64,000 nt of DNA, from assembly GCA_963754875.1 (NCBI GenBank), contig CAVWHO010000011.1, positions 32,001 through 96,000 of the forward strand. Reading direction: 5' to 3'. Origin of the DNA: Nitrospirota bacterium. Its GTDB lineage: Bacteria > Nitrospirota > UBA9217. Of this stretch, positions 2,118 through 15,359 are shown piece by piece. A program made the translations under genes and the position numbers. Numbering within the stretch: the first letter of the stretch is position 1; each line of letters begins with the position of its first letter. The notes beneath the pieces are model-generated. The model saw only the letters and a list, made by a program, of their open reading frames with translations, was not told the DNA's origin and did no database searches.

Positions 2118-3525
2118 TGTCAAATGTCAGGACATCGGTTACCCGTTTCTAATGGTCCGAAATGTCAAGACATCGGTTACCCAAGGCTGGTAACGGAGTC
2201 CTCAGGTAGTAAGTCTTCAGGCAATCGGTACTCGAAAGTATCGACAGTGTCGTTCCCGAGGTAGAGCTGCACTGAATGGATTTTCGTCACAATTTGTGCC
2301 CTTACGTAAGAGTATACGAGGTCTTTTGATACCTCGAAGCGTTCACCGAAGATGTCGAGTTTCCGATCACTTCGAATGAACCGAATGACAGAAATACATC
2401 CATCCGGAATGAAGCTGAGGTCAGGCATCTTGGTATTCGATCCTACTGTTACCGGCGTAAAATTGTAGGCGGCCTGCCTCATCTCAAAAGGGGTTTTTCC
2501 CTTAAGGAAGCTGTAACGGTGATACTTGTTGTGAAACCGCTGGAAATTCTTGCTCTGCCGCTTCAGAACGGTATAGCTTGAAAACCATTGTCTGTGGTAG
2601 AACTTTTTGTCGTAGGTGTTGTTAAAATGCTCAACGACGCCGTTGCGCCACGGTTCGGCAATCGGGATAAAGACCGGATGGACACCATAGGCCAAGCAAA
2701 GCCGTATGACCATTCCGAAAGATCGGGGGTAACGATTGCTGCCGCGGAAGTTCAGCGCATTGTCCATCTGGAGATAATCAGGAATCCCCATGGTCTTCCA
2801 GCAGCGTAAAAGCCCATGGCAGACGTGGGAATCCTCCTTTGTTCTTTGAGCCTCTATGTATACTTCACGGTCGAACAGATCGATAACGTTCATCGAATAG
2901 AATCTGCCGTCTCCTTTAATGTAACGCGGTCCTACCAGATCCATCTGGTGAATGTTGTTGCTGCACAGAGCTTCGATGAAGTAAGGGTATTCGACCCCTT
3001 TCGGTACATAGGCTGTTTTTTTTTACGAGCCCTTCGCGCTTCAGCACTCGGTTAATTGTACTATCCGAAGGGAACGGTAAATCCTGCTTCTTGAGTTCCC
3101 ACTTGATGGCCGAGACACCGATCTGGGAATAGGGAGCAGCTACCAACTGTTGTCTGGTCGAAAGGATGCGCTCTTTTTCTTCCTGGTCGATCTCTGAGGG
3201 CCTTGTTTTGGGAGCCCGGGATTGTTCTTTGTACCAGTCTGGTGCTCCGGTCTGATAGCGGTTCAGCCATTTGAAGAACCACTTTTTGGATCGGTTCAAG
3301 CTGGTATAGACATCCTTGGGTGATTCACCTCCTTGGATGTGTCTATTAATTGCGGTTTGTCTTAGTTCTTCTTCCATCAGTGCTCTCCTTTGACGATCTC
3401 GGATAAGGAGAGCATGATAGCATTAAATGCAGACTAGGACACCGATGTCCTGATGTAAAAAAAATGACGTTTCGGGTAACCGATGTCTTGACACATCTGG
3501 GTAACCGATGTCCTGAAACTTGTCA
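2118..3525 (-). mobile_element. IS481-family insertion sequence, 1408 bp, 6-bp target duplication CCTATC (2112-2117 and 3526-3531)
   Basis: Terminal IRs TGTCAAATGTCAGGACATCGGTTACCC / GGGTAACCGATGTCCTGAAACTTGTCA; extra internal copies at 2160-2182, 3441-3453, 3474-3493; HTH + rve transposase inside. Confidence 0.9.
2177..3377 (-). CDS. IS481-like DDE transposase split into HTH ORF (2916-3377) and integrase-core ORF (2177-2944) at an A9 run
   Basis: KWLNRY HTH; DDE motifs QMDLVG, QMDNAL, NGVVEHFN; frames join if one A is removed from GTAAAAAAAAAC (T-run 3016-3024). Confidence 0.85.
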
Positions 3526-4124: not shown

Positions 4125-4485
4125 TATGATACATGACTATCATAAAATATTCCATAAGAGACTGTTTTAACATACTGGGGCGGGTATTTCGGGATGAAGA
4201 TTTTAACGAATTCGGAATGAGTCTTTATGAGTTTCAGGAAGCGGCAACCACAACACCTTCAGGATCAGGTAATGCACCTTGACTGGTCAGCTATTATGTA
4301 CAAGCTTCAGGAAAGCTATTGTCTGCACGTTTCAACCGGATTAATTCTTCACTTCTGTTTGGTCGGAGCCCCATGCGGAGCACACATACAAACACGGGTC
4401 GCGATGGGTTGCAACTCGAGCGAATTCGGTTGTAATATTCACATACTACATTGCCCCAGAAGGACATCCCTTAGCCGAATCCGTT

Positions 4486-9687: not shown

Positions 9688-10029
9688 CCTGGGCGGTCTC
9701 CGTAAGCCGCTAACAAGGCCCGCTTATGGCTCTCTCGATTTTATTAATTTTGCAGGGTCAGCCCAATACGTCTAATATTCGTCGCTCGGTTATTGAAAAG
9801 AAACGATTGTTTTTCGACGAACGTAGCACGACGAATATTATTGAGTCAACGTAAATTTGCAATTTGAGGAGGGTATTTTAAGACATATGCGAACAAATAT
9901 ATCTTGAAATTTTATTGATCTGACAGGATGGAAACTTCAACAGCTTCAGACCTTATGATTAAAGTGGCAAGTCCGTCTTAAGGTATATTTGTGTCAGGCA
10001 GACAAAATAGTACCGAAAGGAGACTTGCC

Positions 10030-11100
10030 ATGAATAACCTTAGCAAACTGGATTTCACCGGTCAACACATTTATGTGGGGATGGATGTTCACCGAAAGAG
10101 CTGGAGCATCAGTATTATGACCGAACACAGCGCACATAAGACGTTCTCCCAGCCACCGGACCCTGTGCTCCTGAGCAACTATATGCAGCGAAACTTCCCC
10201 GGGGCAACCTATCATGCTGCTTACGAGGCCGGCTATTCCGGTTTCTGGATCCATGACCAACTCCGCGAGAAAGGCATCGAATGCATGGTAGTAAATCCTG
10301 CCGATGTCCCGACAAAAGACAAAGAACGCGCTGGCAAAACTGATAAAGTGGATTGCCGTAAGCTTGCCCGCTGCCTCAGGAACGGCGAGCTCGAAGGAAT
10401 CTATGTTCCTGCTCGAGTGAAGGTCGAAGACCGCGGTTTGCTCCGGACCCGACGCAACATGGTCAAAAAGCAGGTCCGTTGCAAAAACCAGATCAAGTCT
10501 CTGCTTGCCTTTTATGGTATCCATCTACCAAACGACATTGTTCACAGCAACTGGTCATATAAATTCATCCAATGGATTCAGAGCATTCAAATGGAACGGG
10601 CCAGCGGGAACTACGTTTTTAAAGTCTACCTCTATGAACTGGAACAACTTCGCAGAATCATCACTGCTTTGAACCGACAGATCCGCATCCTCGCCCGAAC
10701 AGATGAGTATAAGACCAATGTGCAGTTGTTAAGGACTGTTCCCGGCATCAGTACGCTTACTGCCATGACGCTTCTTACAGAATTATACAATATCGACCGG
10801 TTCCAGTCGCTCGATAAGCTCGCAAGCTATATTGGTCTTGTTCCTGACACAGACTCCAGCGGAGAGAAAGATACGACGAAGGGCATGACGAATCGAAAGA
10901 ACCGGTTTCTGCGATTCTTGATCATTGAAGATGCGTGGATCGCTGTACGGCAGGATCCGGCGCTTTTGATGGCTTTTGAGCGGCTTACGAAAAAGATGCC
11001 GAAAACCAGGGCCATTATCCATATAGCCAGGAAACTCTTGAACCGTATCAGATACGTTCTTAAGAACCAGAAGGAGTATGTGTCGGCAGTTGTTCAGTAA
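10030..11100 (+). CDS. IS110-family DEDD recombinase/transposase
   Basis: GMDVH (D), AYEAG (E), KTDKVD (DD), TVPGI, YIGLVP..DSSG catalytic serine. Confidence 0.95.
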   Translation: MNNLSKLDFTGQHIYVGMDVHRKSWSISIMTEHSAHKTFSQPPDPVLLSNYMQRNFPGATYHAAYEAGYSGFWIHDQLREKGIECMVVNPADVPTKDKERAGKTDKVDCRKLARCLRNGELEGIYVPARVKVEDRGLLRTRRNMVKKQVRCKNQIKSLLAFYGIHLPNDIVHSNWSYKFIQWIQSIQMERASGNYVFKVYLYELEQLRRIITALNRQIRILARTDEYKTNVQLLRTVPGISTLTAMTLLTELYNIDRFQSLDKLASYIGLVPDTDSSGEKDTTKGMTNRKNRFLRFLIIEDAWIAVRQDPALLMAFERLTKKMPKTRAIIHIARKLLNRIRYVLKNQKEYVSAVVQ

Positions 11101-11109
11101 CTTACGGGA

Positions 11110-11315
11110 TTGTGCTGGGACGAATGATCTTTATAGACCTAGTTCATCGTGGGTAACGCTTTCTTTCTTCCTGCAGCCGGATGCATTGTGTCTGCTTACT
11201 TCAGACTGCGTACCCACACTTTAAAACATGACCGAGGAAATGCAGCTGCCTTTATGCTGTAGGCATGTCTGCTGATAAAAGGTTGGTTTTAAAGACTTGT
11301 TCGTCCTGAGAACAA
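11110..11315 (+). ncRNA. Putative bridge/seek RNA of the IS110 element
   Basis: Closing stem GGACGAA/TTCGTCC; two hairpins with large internal loops, both capped by TGCAGC...TGTCTGCT. Confidence 0.7.
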
Positions 11316-11467
11316 AACCGAAGAAGGGATTACTACGCCAAAAGTAGACTTGACCTTTAACATAAAAGGAAGTTTATCAGAGCTAAACGGATCTATTATG
11401 CACATCCATTCAGTTTAGAGAATGCGCGAGATAGAGGATGAAAGAATTCCTCAACAATAAGACATAC

Positions 11468-12389
11468 TTATTTGGACAGCTTTGCAGTAAAGGCGGGAAC
11501 GAACTGCATCACATCGGCCACTACCATCACATCCGCTACTTCGCCGATAGGCGCGTCCTTGTCCTTGTTGATGGCAACTACAAACTCGGAATTCTTCATC
11601 CCGGCCAAATGCTGAATGGCCCCGGAAATGCCGCACGCCACGTAGATCTTCGGCGCCACGGTCTGGCCGGTGGTCCCGACCTGGTGGCTGTGCTCGAGCC
11701 ATCCCGCATCGACCACCGGACGGCTCGCCCCGAGTTGCCCGCCCAGGGCCTTGGCCAGCGCGGCGATGATTGCCACATTTTCTTTTTTCCCGACTCCTCT
11801 GCCGGCGCTGACGATCACCTCTGCGCGCGACAGGTCTACTTCTTTTTTCTGCGGCGGCTCATAGCCGACGAATTCCATAGCCGAAACAGCGTCAGCGAGG
11901 TCGATCTTTTCCACCTGCGGGTTCCCCTGCGGCTTCTCCGCTGAAGTTGAAGGCCCCGGCTTGAATGGTGAGGACCGTCTTCCCCGTCTGCGAGATGACG
12001 GTCCGCCGCAGTTTGGCATTGCAGAGGCCGACTTCGAATTTTCCTTCGTTGATTCCGACGATTTCGGAAACCTGTCCGACCTTGAGCGCCGCGGCCACCC
12101 GCGGGGCCAGGTCCCAGCCATAGGAGGAATGGAGAAAAACGATACAGTCGGGGTTTTCCCGCTTGACTGCTTCAAGCACGATCTTGTTTGTGCAGATCCG
12201 GATTGTACTCTCCGTATTTTTTGGCATCGGCAAAATAGAGTTTGCAGTTGACCCTGGGGAGCTTCCGCTTCGCTCCCGATCAGGACCATTGCCTTGTCAG
12301 CCCCCAGCTTGTCGGCAAAAGCCACGAGTTCATAGCTGGAAGTCAAGGAGGTTTCCTTCCCGGTATTCGCAAATCAGCAGTGCTTTCAT
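11468..12389 (-). CDS. etfA: Electron transfer flavoprotein alpha subunit (several 1-bp indels)
   Basis: IVSAGRG, GASRPVVD, QVGTTG, ACGISGAIQHLAG, AINKD; N-terminus MKALLICEYREG at 12389. Confidence 0.9.
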
Positions 12390-12428
12390 TCGATCCTCCT
12401 AACCCGGTCAAACTCAAAAACAGGATTT

Positions 12429-12544
12429 TAACCACAGGCGCCTTTGGCGCACACGGTTAGATTCGAGTCATGGGGTTTTTTGTTGCGACAGGTTTCCCTA
12501 CTACTGTGTTCATCTGTGCGTCCCGTACTCGGGACCCGTGGTTA
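12429..12544. repeat. REP-like palindromic intergenic element between etfB and etfA
   Basis: TAACCACAGG...CCCGTGGTTA imperfect IR with internal CTGTGTTCATCTGTG. Confidence 0.5.
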
Positions 12545-12592
12545 CATCCAGGTTGTCTTTTTGTGTCTTTTCTACCTCATTGTGAAAATTTT

Positions 12593-13372
12593 TTACTTCA
12601 CTACCGTGGTTTTCTCTTTTAAAATGACGAGGAGCCGCTCAGCCATATCGTTCACGTCGCTTTCAAGGAGAATGCCGCTCCCTTTCCTCGCAGGCGCATA
12701 GGCACTGGCCGTGGCAGTCATTTCCTTCTCTTGAAGAAAATCGGTAATTGGGAAAACAAGGAGCTCCTTCTTCTTCGCCTTCATGATATTGGGAAGGGTC
12801 GGATAGCGGGGCGTATTGAGCCCGAGCTGGCAGGTAACCAGCGCCGGCAGGCTGAACTTCACCGCTGCTTTCACGCCCCCCTCCAGTTCCCGCTTTGCGG
12901 TGACGATGCCGTCTGTCGATAGGCAAAACCGACGACTGTAGTGACGCACGTGATGCCCAAGAGTTCTGCTACGATGGCGCCGACCTGAGCGGAACCGCGG
13001 TCCTGGGACTGCATGCCGGTGAAGATGAGGTCGAAGTTTTTGTCGCGGCCAAATCCGGCTATGGTGGAAGCGATCTGCCACGGATCTTTTTGATAGGAGG
13101 CATTGTCCTGGATGTGGACACCCGCGGTCGCACCCCATGGCCAGGGCCTTCTTGATCGGCTCGACGAGCCGGTCAGGCCCGATGGAGAGTACGGTAATGT
13201 CCGGCTCGTTGCCGAGCTTTTCCTTGACTTGCACCGCCTGCTCAACAGCATATTCATCGTACTCGTTCATCCTGAAAGCCAGGTCAGTCTCGTCATACCA
13301 GACGTTGTCCTTGTTGACCTTAAACCGGGATGCCATGTCAGGCACCTGCTTGATGCAAACCAGTATCTTCAT
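12593..13372 (-). CDS. etfB: Electron transfer flavoprotein beta subunit (compensating indels)
   Basis: MKILVCIKQVPD, NEYDEYAVE, TGMQSQD (alternate frame), NTPRYPTLPNIMKAKKK. Confidence 0.92.
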   Translation of the reverse strand: MKILVCIKQVPDMASRFKVNKDNVWYDETDLAFRMNEYDEYAVEQAVQVKEKLGNEPDITVLSIGPDRLVEPIKKALAMGCDRGCPHPGQCLLSKRSVADRFHHSRIWPRQKLRPHLHRHAVPGPRFRSGRRHRSRTLGHHVRHYSRRFCLSTDGIVTAKRELEGGVKAAVKFSLPALVTCQLGLNTPRYPTLPNIMKAKKKELLVFPITDFLQEKEMTATASAYAPARKGSGILLESDVNDMAERLLVILKEKTTVVK

Positions 13373-13373
13373 C

Positions 13374-15359
13374 CTATCCTCCGATTCGTGCGGCGACAAT
13401 CTCAGCCAGATCAAGCGCCTTCAACTTTCCTTCAGCGTCTCCGGTTTTTATTCCATCCTCGATCATGGTGAGACAGAAGGGACAGTTGGAAACAAGCAGC
13501 GGGGCTCCCGTTGCCTGGGCCATTTTTACCCGTGCCACGTTGATTCTCGTCCCGAGCTTCTCCTCGGCCAGAATCCTGCCCCCGCCAGCGCCGCAGCAGA
13601 AGCTTTCGTAGCCTGACTGCTCCATCTCCGTGATCTGCCCGCCTGCCGCCTTGAGAACAGCGCGCGGTTCAACAAAGATGTCCTTGTAGCGCCCCAGGTA
13701 GCAGGAGTCATGGTAGGTGAATTCGAACGACTCCGGTTTGAGCTTCAGCCTGTTGCCGCTGATCAGGCCGTTCACGAAGGTGCTGTAGTGCTCAACATCA
13801 ATCTCCAGCCCGAGGTCCTTGTAATCTCTGCCCAGGGTATTGAAGCAGTGGGGGCAGGTCGTGACGATCTTCTTAACCCCGTACTTCTTGATCACTTCGA
13901 TGTTCTGGGCTGCCACGGTCTGGTAGAGATACTCGTTCCCCATCTTTCGCACTGGTTCGCCGCAGCATTTCTCTTCCTTGCCGAGAATGCCGACCCGGAT
14001 GTTTGCTCCGTTGCAGATCTTGACGAAGCTCCGGGCAATCTCCCGGTTTCTCTTGTCAAAGGAAGCATAACACCCCGCGAAGTAGAGTACGTCCACGTCG
14101 TTGTCCTGCTCCATGATTTTCACGTCGAGCCCTGCGGCCCAGTCGCCGCGGCTGGCGAAGGCGAGTCCGAAGGGGTTGCCGTTCACCTCGATATTGTTGA
14201 CAGCGGTCCGCACCTCGTCGCCGGGGAAGGACCCCTGCATCAGAGAGAGGTTGCGCCGCATTTCGAGGATCTTGTTCACCTGCTCGACACTTGCCGGACA
14301 GATCTCCTGGCATGCTCGGCAGGTGGTGCAGGCCCAGAGGCTGTCCGCGCCGATTGTCTCAACCAGGTCTGCCCCGGGATTGGTGAAAGCCACGTCGCCG
14401 ATCTGCTTTACTATTTTCATGGGAGACAGGGGCTTCCCGGTTACATGGGCCGGGCACCGGTCCTGGCAGCGCTTGCAGGAGGTGCAGGCGTCGGCATCGA
14501 AGATATCTTTCCAGGAGAGATCGGAGACCTTGGCTGCGCCGAACTGACCAGTGCCCTCGTCTTCGAGGTTGATCGTGGCGATCGATCCTTTGGGCGCCAG
14601 ATCAGTGAACAGGTAATTGGCAGAGGTGGTGAAGATGTGCCGCAGTTTTGTGGAGGGGATGATCGCGATAAAACTCATTGCCAGCAGAAGGTGGACCCAC
14701 CAGAGCAGCTTATGAACAAGAGACAGGGCTTCGGAAGTCATGCCAAGGAAAAGCTTCCCGATGACCATGCCGAAAGGAGAAAAGAGCGCCAGGTCTGGAT
14801 TAGTTCTGAGCTCGGTAGCGGCCATCCGCACTCCTTCAATAACGAAACCGGTCACGAGGATGGTAAACAGCAGGCCGTGTATTACATAATCATCTCTTAT
14901 GGTTTCCAAACCTTCAGGCTTGATGAAGAAGCGGCGAACAAGCAACCCGCCGAGCATAAGGATTCCGACAAAGCCGGCTGCATCGAGAGCGAGCGAGAAT
15001 ATTTTGTAAAAAGATCCTTTGAGGAAGGCCAGCCCGAGAACGGGCTGGGTGAAATCCACCTGGGCCATGACGAGGAGCGTGCCGATAAAGAGTATGCCGA
15101 AGCTCCAAAAGAAAAAGGCGTGAAAGAACCCGGGGCCAGGCACGCGGAGCACCCGCACCTGGGCGATCATGTTCTTCAGGAACAGCAAAATTCTCTCAGG
15201 CAGGCGATCGAACCTGTTCAGCGCCTTTCCCTGGCGGTATACGGCGAAACGGCGGTAAAAGCCGTAGAGAAACGCAGCAACAGCAAGAGCAAAGATGAAG
15301 TACATGGGCACTACGACGCCGTGCCCTACATTCCAGTATATTTCCCGGGTAGCTTCCAT
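13374..15359 (-). CDS. fadF: Membrane Fe-S oxidoreductase (NarI-like TM + 4Fe-4S + CCG domains; FadF / ETF:menaquinone oxidoreductase)
   Basis: CTSCKRCQDRCP, CTTCRACQEICP, CCG, HDSC, CCGAGGG motifs; adjacent to etfBA. Confidence 0.88.
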   Translation of the reverse strand: MEATREIYWNVGHGVVVPMYFIFALAVAAFLYGFYRRFAVYRQGKALNRFDRLPERILLFLKNMIAQVRVLRVPGPGFFHAFFFWSFGILFIGTLLVMAQVDFTQPVLGLAFLKGSFYKIFSLALDAAGFVGILMLGGLLVRRFFIKPEGLETIRDDYVIHGLLFTILVTGFVIEGVRMAATELRTNPDLALFSPFGMVIGKLFLGMTSEALSLVHKLLWWVHLLLAMSFIAIIPSTKLRHIFTTSANYLFTDLAPKGSIATINLEDEGTGQFGAAKVSDLSWKDIFDADACTSCKRCQDRCPAHVTGKPLSPMKIVKQIGDVAFTNPGADLVETIGADSLWACTTCRACQEICPASVEQVNKILEMRRNLSLMQGSFPGDEVRTAVNNIEVNGNPFGLAFASRGDWAAGLDVKIMEQDNDVDVLYFAGCYASFDKRNREIARSFVKICNGANIRVGILGKEEKCCGEPVRKMGNEYLYQTVAAQNIEVIKKYGVKKIVTTCPHCFNTLGRDYKDLGLEIDVEHYSTFVNGLISGNRLKLKPESFEFTYHDSCYLGRYKDIFVEPRAVLKAAGGQITEMEQSGYESFCCGAGGGRILAEEKLGTRINVARVKMAQATGAPLLVSNCPFCLTMIEDGIKTGDAEGKLKALDLAEIVAARIGG

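What the first reader, a model, noticed from the sequence alone, without database searches (positions are those of the whole stretch)
11110..11315. IS110 3' non-coding end folds into a two-loop bridge/seek-RNA-like guide RNA
Seen: the ~270 nt after the DEDD recombinase stop folds by eye into a closing stem (GGACGAA 11118-24 / TTCGTCC 11300-06) enclosing two pseudo-symmetric hairpins. Hairpin 1: GTGGGTAACGC 11149-59 / GCGTACCCAC 11208-17, internal loop strands TTTCTTTCTTCCT (11160-72) and TTACTTCAGACT (11196-207). Hairpin 2: CTTTAAAAC 11219-27 / GTTTTAAAG 11286-94, loop strands GAGGAAAT (11234-41) and TGATAAAA (11273-80). Both loops are capped by the same duplicated motifs, TGCAGC (11172, 11241) and TGTCTGCT (11189, 11266). 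Known: IS110/IS1111 recombinases use a bispecific RNA with target- and donor-binding loops. Inference: this is the guide RNA of a programmable RNA-guided recombinase that may be uncharacterised.
Basis: partly seen in the sequence, partly recalled or inferred. Interest (0 to 1): 0.82.

Follow-up and report, generated by a model that had tools for sequence, protein, structure and literature searches.

The report
Bridge RNA of 3'-type IS110 element
The stretch behind this jumping gene's recombinase is a real guide ("bridge") RNA whose first loop spells out where the element lands and whose second loop reads the element's own ends, a mechanism known since 2024, here in an untested branch with a few unusual details.

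Summary
Confirmed and already a known kind. The 268 nt behind an intact IS110-family recombinase (two near-identical copies in the genome) encode a bridge RNA. Hairpin 1 is the target loop: in related elements its two strands change together with the flanks (4.4 and 5.2 of 6 bases match, against 2.1 and 3.3 in shuffles; 0 of 5000 shuffles as high). Hairpin 2 is the donor loop: 5 bases match the right end in 67 of 67. The core is AG (CT on the other strand, as in IS621), handshake bases are present, and the guide order is IS1111-type. Corrections: across the family, hairpin 2's base pairs better with the 5' leader, and the left donor guide is weak. Extras: relatives insert into GG-core targets and leave AG left, GG right (10 of 10 in one genome), a strand-biased product. 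This sub-clade lands at the edge of an unexplained dispersed host repeat. No RNA or activity data were found. The scan has noted bridge RNAs on other DNA, but none on look-alike sequence. Large published catalogues may already contain this family.

The parts
9830..9947 (+). Left flank: a copy of a dispersed host repeat (~125 bp, left limit approximate) whose right edge is the insertion site; last bases CTTC are the target half read by the 3' guide strand
9948..9949 (+). Core AG at the left junction (CT on the other strand)
9950..10029 (+). Left end (80 bp): donor arm ACCTT, -10 box TATGAT (9954-59), imperfect subterminal repeat 9954-9973, ribosome-binding site
10030..11100 (+). IS110-family DEDD recombinase, 356 aa; D19, E66, D105, D108 and S277 line up with the IS621 catalytic residues
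11110..11312 (+). Predicted bridge RNA (limits from the covariance model; true ends unknown)
11149..11217 (+). Target-binding loop (hairpin 1)
11164..11172 (+). 5' target guide, complementary to core plus right flank on the + strand (LTG in IS621 terms)
11196..11206 (+). 3' target guide, identical to left flank plus core on the + strand (RTG), followed by handshake bases AC (11205-06) that match the first two bases of the left end
11219..11294 (+). Donor-binding loop (hairpin 2); its base may alternatively pair with the leader 11128-11140
11232..11239 (+). 5' donor guide, weak: 3 of 8 matches plus one G-T wobble to the left end
11275..11283 (+). 3' donor guide ATAAA plus core AG (identical to the right end) and handshake base G11282 (equals the first base of the right flank)
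11347..11366 (+). Right-end tip: subterminal repeat 11347-11364, -35 box TTGACC (11350-55), donor arm 11362-66
11367..11375 (+). Core AG at the right junction (11367-68) and right target half GAAG
4196..4271 (+). Unoccupied copy of the same host repeat in this window

Best explanation
An active, autonomous 1.42-kb IS110-family element with its bridge RNA in the 3' end. Steps: (1) The two ends join through the AG core into a circle, which creates a sigma-70 promoter (TTGACC, 17 bp, TATGAT) that transcribes the recombinase gene and the RNA behind it (inferred from sequence and from IS621/ISEc11). (2) The recombinase binds the RNA at the twin GCAG/CUGC caps (inferred). (3) Loop 1 pairs with both strands of a CTTC-AG-GAAG-type site, top-strand complement first; loop 2 pairs with the joined ends, firmly on the right end and weakly on the left (shown by covariation, not by experiment). 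(4) The strand that is 'top' in IS621 terms (the - strand here) is cut beside the core and exchanged, and the handshake bases then pair with the incoming strand (inferred; positions covary). The product of this first exchange is what genomes retain. In this genus the site is the edge of a dispersed host repeat; other members are reprogrammed to REP-like hairpins and other sites.
For: Recombinase: Pfam PF01548 and PF02371, NCBIfam NF033542 207.7 bits against a cut-off of 140. Second copy with 3 differences in 1.43 kb and different flanks. Guide against flank, 6 bases beside the core: 3' strand 4.44 against 2.11 shuffled (n=62), 5' strand 5.2 against 3.34 (n=64, better of two registers in both); one per distinct guide 4.21 against 1.98 (n=34) and 5.0 against 2.92 (n=22); 0 of 5000 shuffles as high in each. 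Held-out check: 6 of 7 fetched copies in G173 could be parsed; right flanks match the guide at 7-8 of 8 bases and left flanks at 3-5 of 6 (by eye). Donor guide equals right end in 67 of 67, in three variants (35, 24, 8). Donor-loop handshake base equals first right-flank base in 36 of 64 against 22.6 expected, 0 of 10000. A TTG hexamer sits 17 bp before the -10 box in 60 of 63 rebuilt junctions (the -10 box is part of how the left end was found). Layout matches the IS621 guide template.
Against: No expression, binding or activity data. At the window's own site only 4+2+4 bases match. Some elements match poorly: in G197 the 3' guide matches the left flank at about 3 of 7 bases, and 5 of 62 left and 5 of 64 right comparisons score 2 or less of 6. 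The left donor guide keeps only 3 positions well (59, 64, 67 of 67) and does not read the core (2 of 67). The handshake base fails in 28 of 64. Elements are related, so shuffles overstate significance. 73 of 155 loci with a protein hit had no RNA by my pattern and were left out; the model later found it in many of them (32 matches over 44 sources).
Confidence: 0.93

Rival explanations
1. seekRNA-type use: the working species is a short target-loop-only RNA, and the donor ends are recognised mainly by protein at the subterminal repeats, with loop 2 playing a minor part.
For: 3' position, strand order and 7+3 bp end spacing are those of IS1111 elements whose abundant RNA is the short target loop (PMC11187229). 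The left donor guide is weak. Target-loop-only RNA is 90% of CazIS110-1 transcripts.
Against: Loop 2 has the same conserved caps as loop 1, matches the right end in 67 of 67 through three variants, and its handshake base follows the target, so it is under selection as a guide. This rival changes the emphasis, not the class.
Confidence: 0.2
2. The folded region acts as DNA (end or accessory site) or as a terminator or antisense regulator, not as a guide RNA.
For: Both strands fold equally well. No promoter-like site for it in the linear element.
Against: Loop strands follow the flanking host sequence across more than 20 distinct guides, and only in one strand order; the opposite order gives 2.44 against 2.47 and, per distinct guide, 1.78 against 1.71. 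Stems show compensatory changes.
Confidence: 0.03
3. Chance fold seen by eye.
For: Short A/T-rich stems arise easily; the closing stem is only 70% paired in the alignment.
Against: z -3.19; 15 of 33 consensus pairs with compensatory change, and slid controls at 33-42% paired against 96.7%; the model finds the RNA beside relatives down to about 35-45% protein identity.
Confidence: 0.01

Closest known systems
IS1111-group elements with 3' seekRNA/bridge RNA (ISEc11, ISPa11, ISKpn4; Siddiquee 2024 PMC11187229, parts 1-3 of 9 and passages read; Durrant 2024 PMC11208160, passages read)
   Same: RNA behind the recombinase gene; top-strand complement first; subterminal repeats with 7 and 3 bp extensions; junction promoter; natural reprogramming; donor guide possibly in a multi-loop.
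   Different: The protein lies outside the IS4321/ISYen1 clade (23-26% identity); the subterminal repeat is gapped rather than near-perfect; the two loops carry twin TGCAGC/TGTCTGC caps, and my model of this RNA does not match IS4321, ISYen1 or ISEc45 loci.
IS621 and ISCro4/IS622 bridge systems (PMC11208160; Hiraizumi 2024 PMC11208158 and 2026 PMC13626964, passages read; guide template from supplement 7 of PMC11208160)
   Same: DEDD plus serine active site; target loop before donor loop; four guides that include a CT core; two handshake bases after each 3' guide.
   Different: RNA is 3' of the gene, not 5'; DNA polarity is reversed relative to the gene; the strong donor guide is the right one, not the left; donor and target cores can differ at the T of CT in nature; only distant protein similarity (E 5e-6 and 1e-4).
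ISCARN28 and ISEc45 branch (DVH...[YF]EAG...KTD motif proteins)
   Same: Shared motifs, by eye, with the ISCARN28 row of Durrant Supplementary Table 1; ISCARN28 is one of six elements with a predicted bridge RNA in that paper (legend read, figure not seen). ISEc45 is the nearest named element in my searches (29.5%).
   Different: Still under 31% identity; the grouping has support 92/89 only; no computed comparison with ISCARN28 was made.
CazIS110-1 (Sun 2025, 10.1101/2025.10.25.684509; part 1 of 5 and passages read)
   Same: Two-loop RNA; top-strand-biased insertion fits the junction asymmetry seen here.
   Different: Sequence relation and RNA position not tested.

Membership tests
IS110-family bridge recombinase system | PF01548 + PF02371 recombinase with DEDD and catalytic serine | tested here: met
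IS110-family bridge recombinase system | Structured RNA in a long non-coding end, conserved with covariation | tested here: met
   15 of 33 pairs compensatory, 96.7% paired
IS110-family bridge recombinase system | Target loop with guides to both strands that change with the target | tested here: met
IS110-family bridge recombinase system | Donor loop with guides to both donor arms | tested here: inconclusive
   Right-end guide 67 of 67; left-end guide only 3 of 8 positions conserved, one of them covarying in 4 elements
IS110-family bridge recombinase system | Core dinucleotide, no target duplication beyond it | tested here: met
   AG at 66 of 67 left junctions; empty sites have one core; right junctions carry the target's core
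IS110-family bridge recombinase system | Handshake guides | tested here: met
   AC invariant after the target-loop core in 38 of 38 aligned rows (partly set by the extraction pattern); donor-loop base follows the target in 36 of 64
IS110-family bridge recombinase system | Promoter formed at the circle junction | tested here: met
   Sequence level only: 60 of 63 rebuilt junctions
IS110-family bridge recombinase system | RNA expressed, bound by the recombinase, required and reprogrammable | not testable with these tools
   No RNA holder listed
IS1111 group (Siddiquee 2024 definition) | Long non-coding region 3' of the gene | tested here: met
   80 bp left, 268 bp right
IS1111 group (Siddiquee 2024 definition) | Top-strand complement precedes bottom-strand match | tested here: met
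   with reversed-order controls
IS1111 group (Siddiquee 2024 definition) | 11-13 bp near-perfect subterminal repeats with 7 and 3 bp extensions | tested here: inconclusive
   7+3 spacing holds if the repeat starts at ATG/CAT; the arms match at 17 of 20 with two gaps, by eye
IS1111 group (Siddiquee 2024 definition) | Transposase related over its full length to IS1111 | tested here: not met
   Outside the IS4321/ISYen1 clade (100/100) in a 17-row tree, 23-26% identity; IS1111 itself was not in the tree

The most novel reading that the evidence does not exclude
This branch is a distinct variant of bridge recombination. The donor is read essentially through one arm. Donor and target cores need not match, because only the first exchanged strand is fixed, with the invariant AGAC of the target loop acting as a four-base handshake with the donor. 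The RNA switches between two conserved folds (donor loop closed on itself or clamped by the 5' leader), which gates donor capture. In this genus it is aimed at an undescribed promoter-bearing host repeat.
Probability: 0.3. Interest if true: 0.65.

Novelty: new member of a known kind. Interest (0 to 1): 0.4.

Why it matters
The class is known and heavily mined, so one more bridge RNA is not surprising. What is useful: (1) a fully decoded, naturally reprogrammed 3'-type system with more than 20 distinct guides, from a branch with under 31% identity to the named elements I could compare; (2) natural insertions of an AG-core donor into GG-core targets that keep the donor core on the left and the target core on the right, genomic evidence on the open question of which strand's product is fixed, and a hint that the matching-core design rule may be relaxed here; (3) a lineage-restricted dispersed repeat of unknown origin as landing site.

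Tried and rejected
Rfam: no match for the element or, above gathering score, for 8 host-repeat loci. Sequencing runs: no RNA holder listed; four runs laid gave only contigs of relatives, no circle junction, and nothing in the one possible RNA run; this is no evidence on expression. Loop 1 as donor loop and the IS621-type strand order: rejected (one reversed control showed a small excess in the full set, 2.14 against 1.89, 81 of 5000, and none per distinct guide). First boundary guess from BLAST (9944-11372) was 4 bp too wide on each side, because the target halves are shared. Host repeat as attC, riboswitch, structured RNA or end of an integrase element: no fold as DNA (6 copies) or RNA (22 copies, both strands); the integrase beside L009 has no tblastn match in G000, and only 1 of 14 PF00589 matches lies next to a repeat, in an IS91-like context. 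Host repeat as decayed gene: stops in frame, by eye. The ends resemble a XerD arm (recalled motif): not tested, probably a by-product of promoter plus subterminal repeat. No structure prediction or complex job was run.

Full report
THE ELEMENT. The ORF 10030-11100 encodes a 356-aa IS110-family recombinase (Pfam PF01548 and PF02371; NCBIfam NF033542 at 207.7 bits, cut-off 140). D19, E66, D105, D108 and S277 line up with the IS621 catalytic residues (residue roles from PMC11208158, passages). The genome holds a second full copy with three differences and different flanks, and a truncated third, so the element has moved recently. The closest named relatives (74-85% identity) come from Nitrospirota MAGs, those at 60-68% from Smithella and other Deltaproteobacteria; 3692 proteins passed E 0.001 among 5252 candidates.

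THE OBSERVATION. The region folds at z -3.19. I gathered relatives from genome contigs (52 loci), metagenomes (the best 80 of 106) and 401 genomes of the phylum (22 with a match). In 38 dereplicated RNAs hairpin 1 and both GCAG/CUGC caps are conserved with compensatory changes. The consensus has 33 pairs, 15 with change on both sides, 96.7% paired against 89.4% in shuffles and 33-42% in slid controls. The difference lies at the base of hairpin 2. Its 3' strand pairs either with 11219-27 (reader; 89.7%) or with the 5' leader (93-97%). Both helices are conserved and exclude each other. Two conformers are possible, but that is inference.

WHAT THE LOOPS READ. Of 155 loci with a protein match, 82 gave both loops by pattern; 72 remained after dropping identical flank-plus-guide rows. 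The 3' strand of loop 1 is identical to the left flank plus AG: 4.44 of 6 bases against 2.11 in shuffles (n=62). The 5' strand is complementary to the core plus right flank: 5.2 against 3.34 (n=64, better of two registers on both sides). With one element per distinct guide the figures are 4.21 against 1.98 (n=34) and 5.0 against 2.92 (n=22). No shuffle of 5000 reached any of these. The opposite strand order gives no signal, apart from a small excess in one full-set control (81 of 5000). As a held-out case, 6 of 7 fetched G173 copies could be parsed; they carry guides not in that set and match at 7-8 of 8 on the right and 3-5 of 6 on the left (by eye). The 3' strand of loop 2 equals the element's right end in 67 of 67, through three variants. 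Its 5' strand matches the left end well at only three of eight positions (59, 64 and 67 of 67) and does not read the core. So loop 1 is the target loop and loop 2 the donor loop. The true ends are 9950 and 11366, flanked by AG. On the other strand this core is CT, and the whole layout maps onto the IS621 guide template (supplement 7 of PMC11208160), including the handshake bases. The AC after the target-loop core matches the first two bases of the left end. The base after the donor-loop core equals the first base of the right flank in 36 of 64 (22.6 expected; 19 of 30 against 9.7 per distinct guide). Joining the ends puts a TTG hexamer 17 bp before the -10 box in 60 of 63 cases; here TTGACC and TATGAT. 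A 3' RNA with the top-strand complement first is the IS1111-type arrangement (PMC11187229).

CORE ASYMMETRY. Among 63 distinct loci with both junctions, the cores (left/right) are AG/AG 44, AG/GG 18, GG/GG 1 and GG/AG 0. G197 has 16 copies. All 12 visible left junctions are AG and all 15 visible right junctions GG; 10 copies show both with flanks (two of them are also). All 13 empty sites of that repeat found by a pattern that allows either core have GG. So an AG donor enters GG targets, and the genome keeps the product of the first (IS621 'top') strand exchange. This fits top-strand-only insertion (CazIS110-1). It also fits two-strand exchange with an unligated bottom strand repaired from the top (PMC13626964, passage), so it does not decide between them. 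The IS621 design tool rejects unequal cores, and core pairing was strongly preferred in IS621 screens. Natural tolerance at this position is the most distinctive mechanistic detail here. Against over-reading: in G197 the 3' guide matches its flank at only about 3 of 7 bases, so target shape may help, as reported for ISPpu10 (10.64898/2026.03.19.712850, abstract only).

THE TARGET. At the window the guides read CTTC-AG-GAAG (10 contiguous bases). Left flanks of this sub-clade share more than that. A weight matrix from 15 flanks of other genomes, leaving out the last 10 bases, was run over G000. Of its 40 best windows (a few are one site shifted by a base), 18 are followed by the guide motif at the expected place, against a background of 0.5%. 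A profile seeded on 20 of these finds 32 copies at E below 0.1. Of these, 21 are uninterrupted, 4 run into a left end of this element (the window's among them) and 7 were not parsed. The flank of the second full copy matches only weakly (E 0.24). An exact pattern from the repeat occurs in G000 and 12 of 24 genomes of the family, and in 0 of 16 outside it. Copies are about 45% alike, show no RNA fold and no Rfam match above gathering score. Ten of 32 have an outward sigma-70-like promoter by pattern, with no control run. Its origin is unexplained. Other sub-clades are aimed at REP-like hairpins and other sites.

PLACE AMONG KNOWN SYSTEMS. In a 17-row tree the element's clade (97/99) lies outside IS4321/ISYen1 (100/100) and groups loosely (92/89) with ISEc45-like proteins; identities are 29.5% to ISEc45 and 22.9% to IS4321. 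The RNA model does not match those loci. By eye the protein shares motifs with ISCARN28, one of the six elements with a predicted bridge RNA in Durrant 2024 (legend only). That paper predicts bridge RNAs in 93% of IS1111-group elements, in the right end, often with donor bases in a multi-loop. A 2026 preprint modelled 32,190 bridge RNAs with 86 models, many unlike IS621 (section 8 read). Half-match recognition is reported for IS621 (10.64898/2026.08.31.748434, part 1 of 6). Searches listed no paper on this branch; closed supplements may hold it. I also saw 10.1101/2024.06.21.599552 (part 1 of 5), 10.64898/2026.08.14.744561 (abstract and outline), PMC13604230 (passages) and 10.1101/2025.05.14.653916 (passages). 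The scan's earlier notes list several bridge RNAs elsewhere and none on look-alike sequence.

VERDICT. Real, well supported by comparison, untested in the laboratory. It works like IS621 with IS1111-type wiring; it is a member of the IS110 bridge family but not of the narrow IS1111 protein clade. New member of a known kind; interest 0.4, raised slightly by the core asymmetry and the unexplained target repeat.

Noticed in passing
window 4196-4271 and about 9830-9947; about 30 sites in G000, often clustered (e.g. C16:362628-368278, C16:525453-530001, C20:432129-437070): Dispersed ~125-bp intergenic repeat found only in the host's family among genomes searched, unstructured, often with an outward sigma-70-like promoter and lying upstream of varied accessory genes on the other strand. 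Origin and function unknown; could be a regulatory region or the end of an unrecognised mobile element.
   Followed up: partly
L007-L009, L011-L013, L015-L017, L027, L048 (about 2485-2720 in L007): A sister group carries about 190 extra non-coding bases between the bridge RNA and the right end, conserved among copies and without a convincing ORF.
   Followed up: partly
G000:C16:529476, C20:396609, C22:73481-73649, C13:175410-175530: Left-end remnants of this element at host-repeat edges without the rest of the element: decayed copies or one-ended insertions.
   Followed up: partly
L024: The same host sequence appears on both sides of the element, as in a tandem duplication or a copy inserted in an amplified segment.
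   Followed up: no
L126:1983-2189: The target loop of this distant relative has a tandem duplication of its 5' guide and cap.
   Followed up: no
L033, L129, L130 (before the RNA); L123, L126 (after the RNA): Distant relatives share an extra ~45-nt motif (GGCAGGTTG...CAGCAG.GCCTG) on either side of the bridge RNA.
   Followed up: no
L010, L018, L062: The RNA or right end is interrupted by another transposase-bearing element.
   Followed up: no
G000:C5, C15, C20 (L171-L173): Three copies of a second, unrelated IS110-family element (24% identity); the RNA model does not match it.
   Followed up: partly
window 11468-13414 (- strand): The electron-transfer-flavoprotein-like genes beside the element look frameshifted: overlapping frames carry consecutive parts of the proteins; possibly sequencing error.
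   Followed up: no
window 2177-3377 (- strand): A transposase/integrase-like gene split over two overlapping frames next to an ECF sigma factor and anti-sigma-like genes (names by eye).
   Followed up: no
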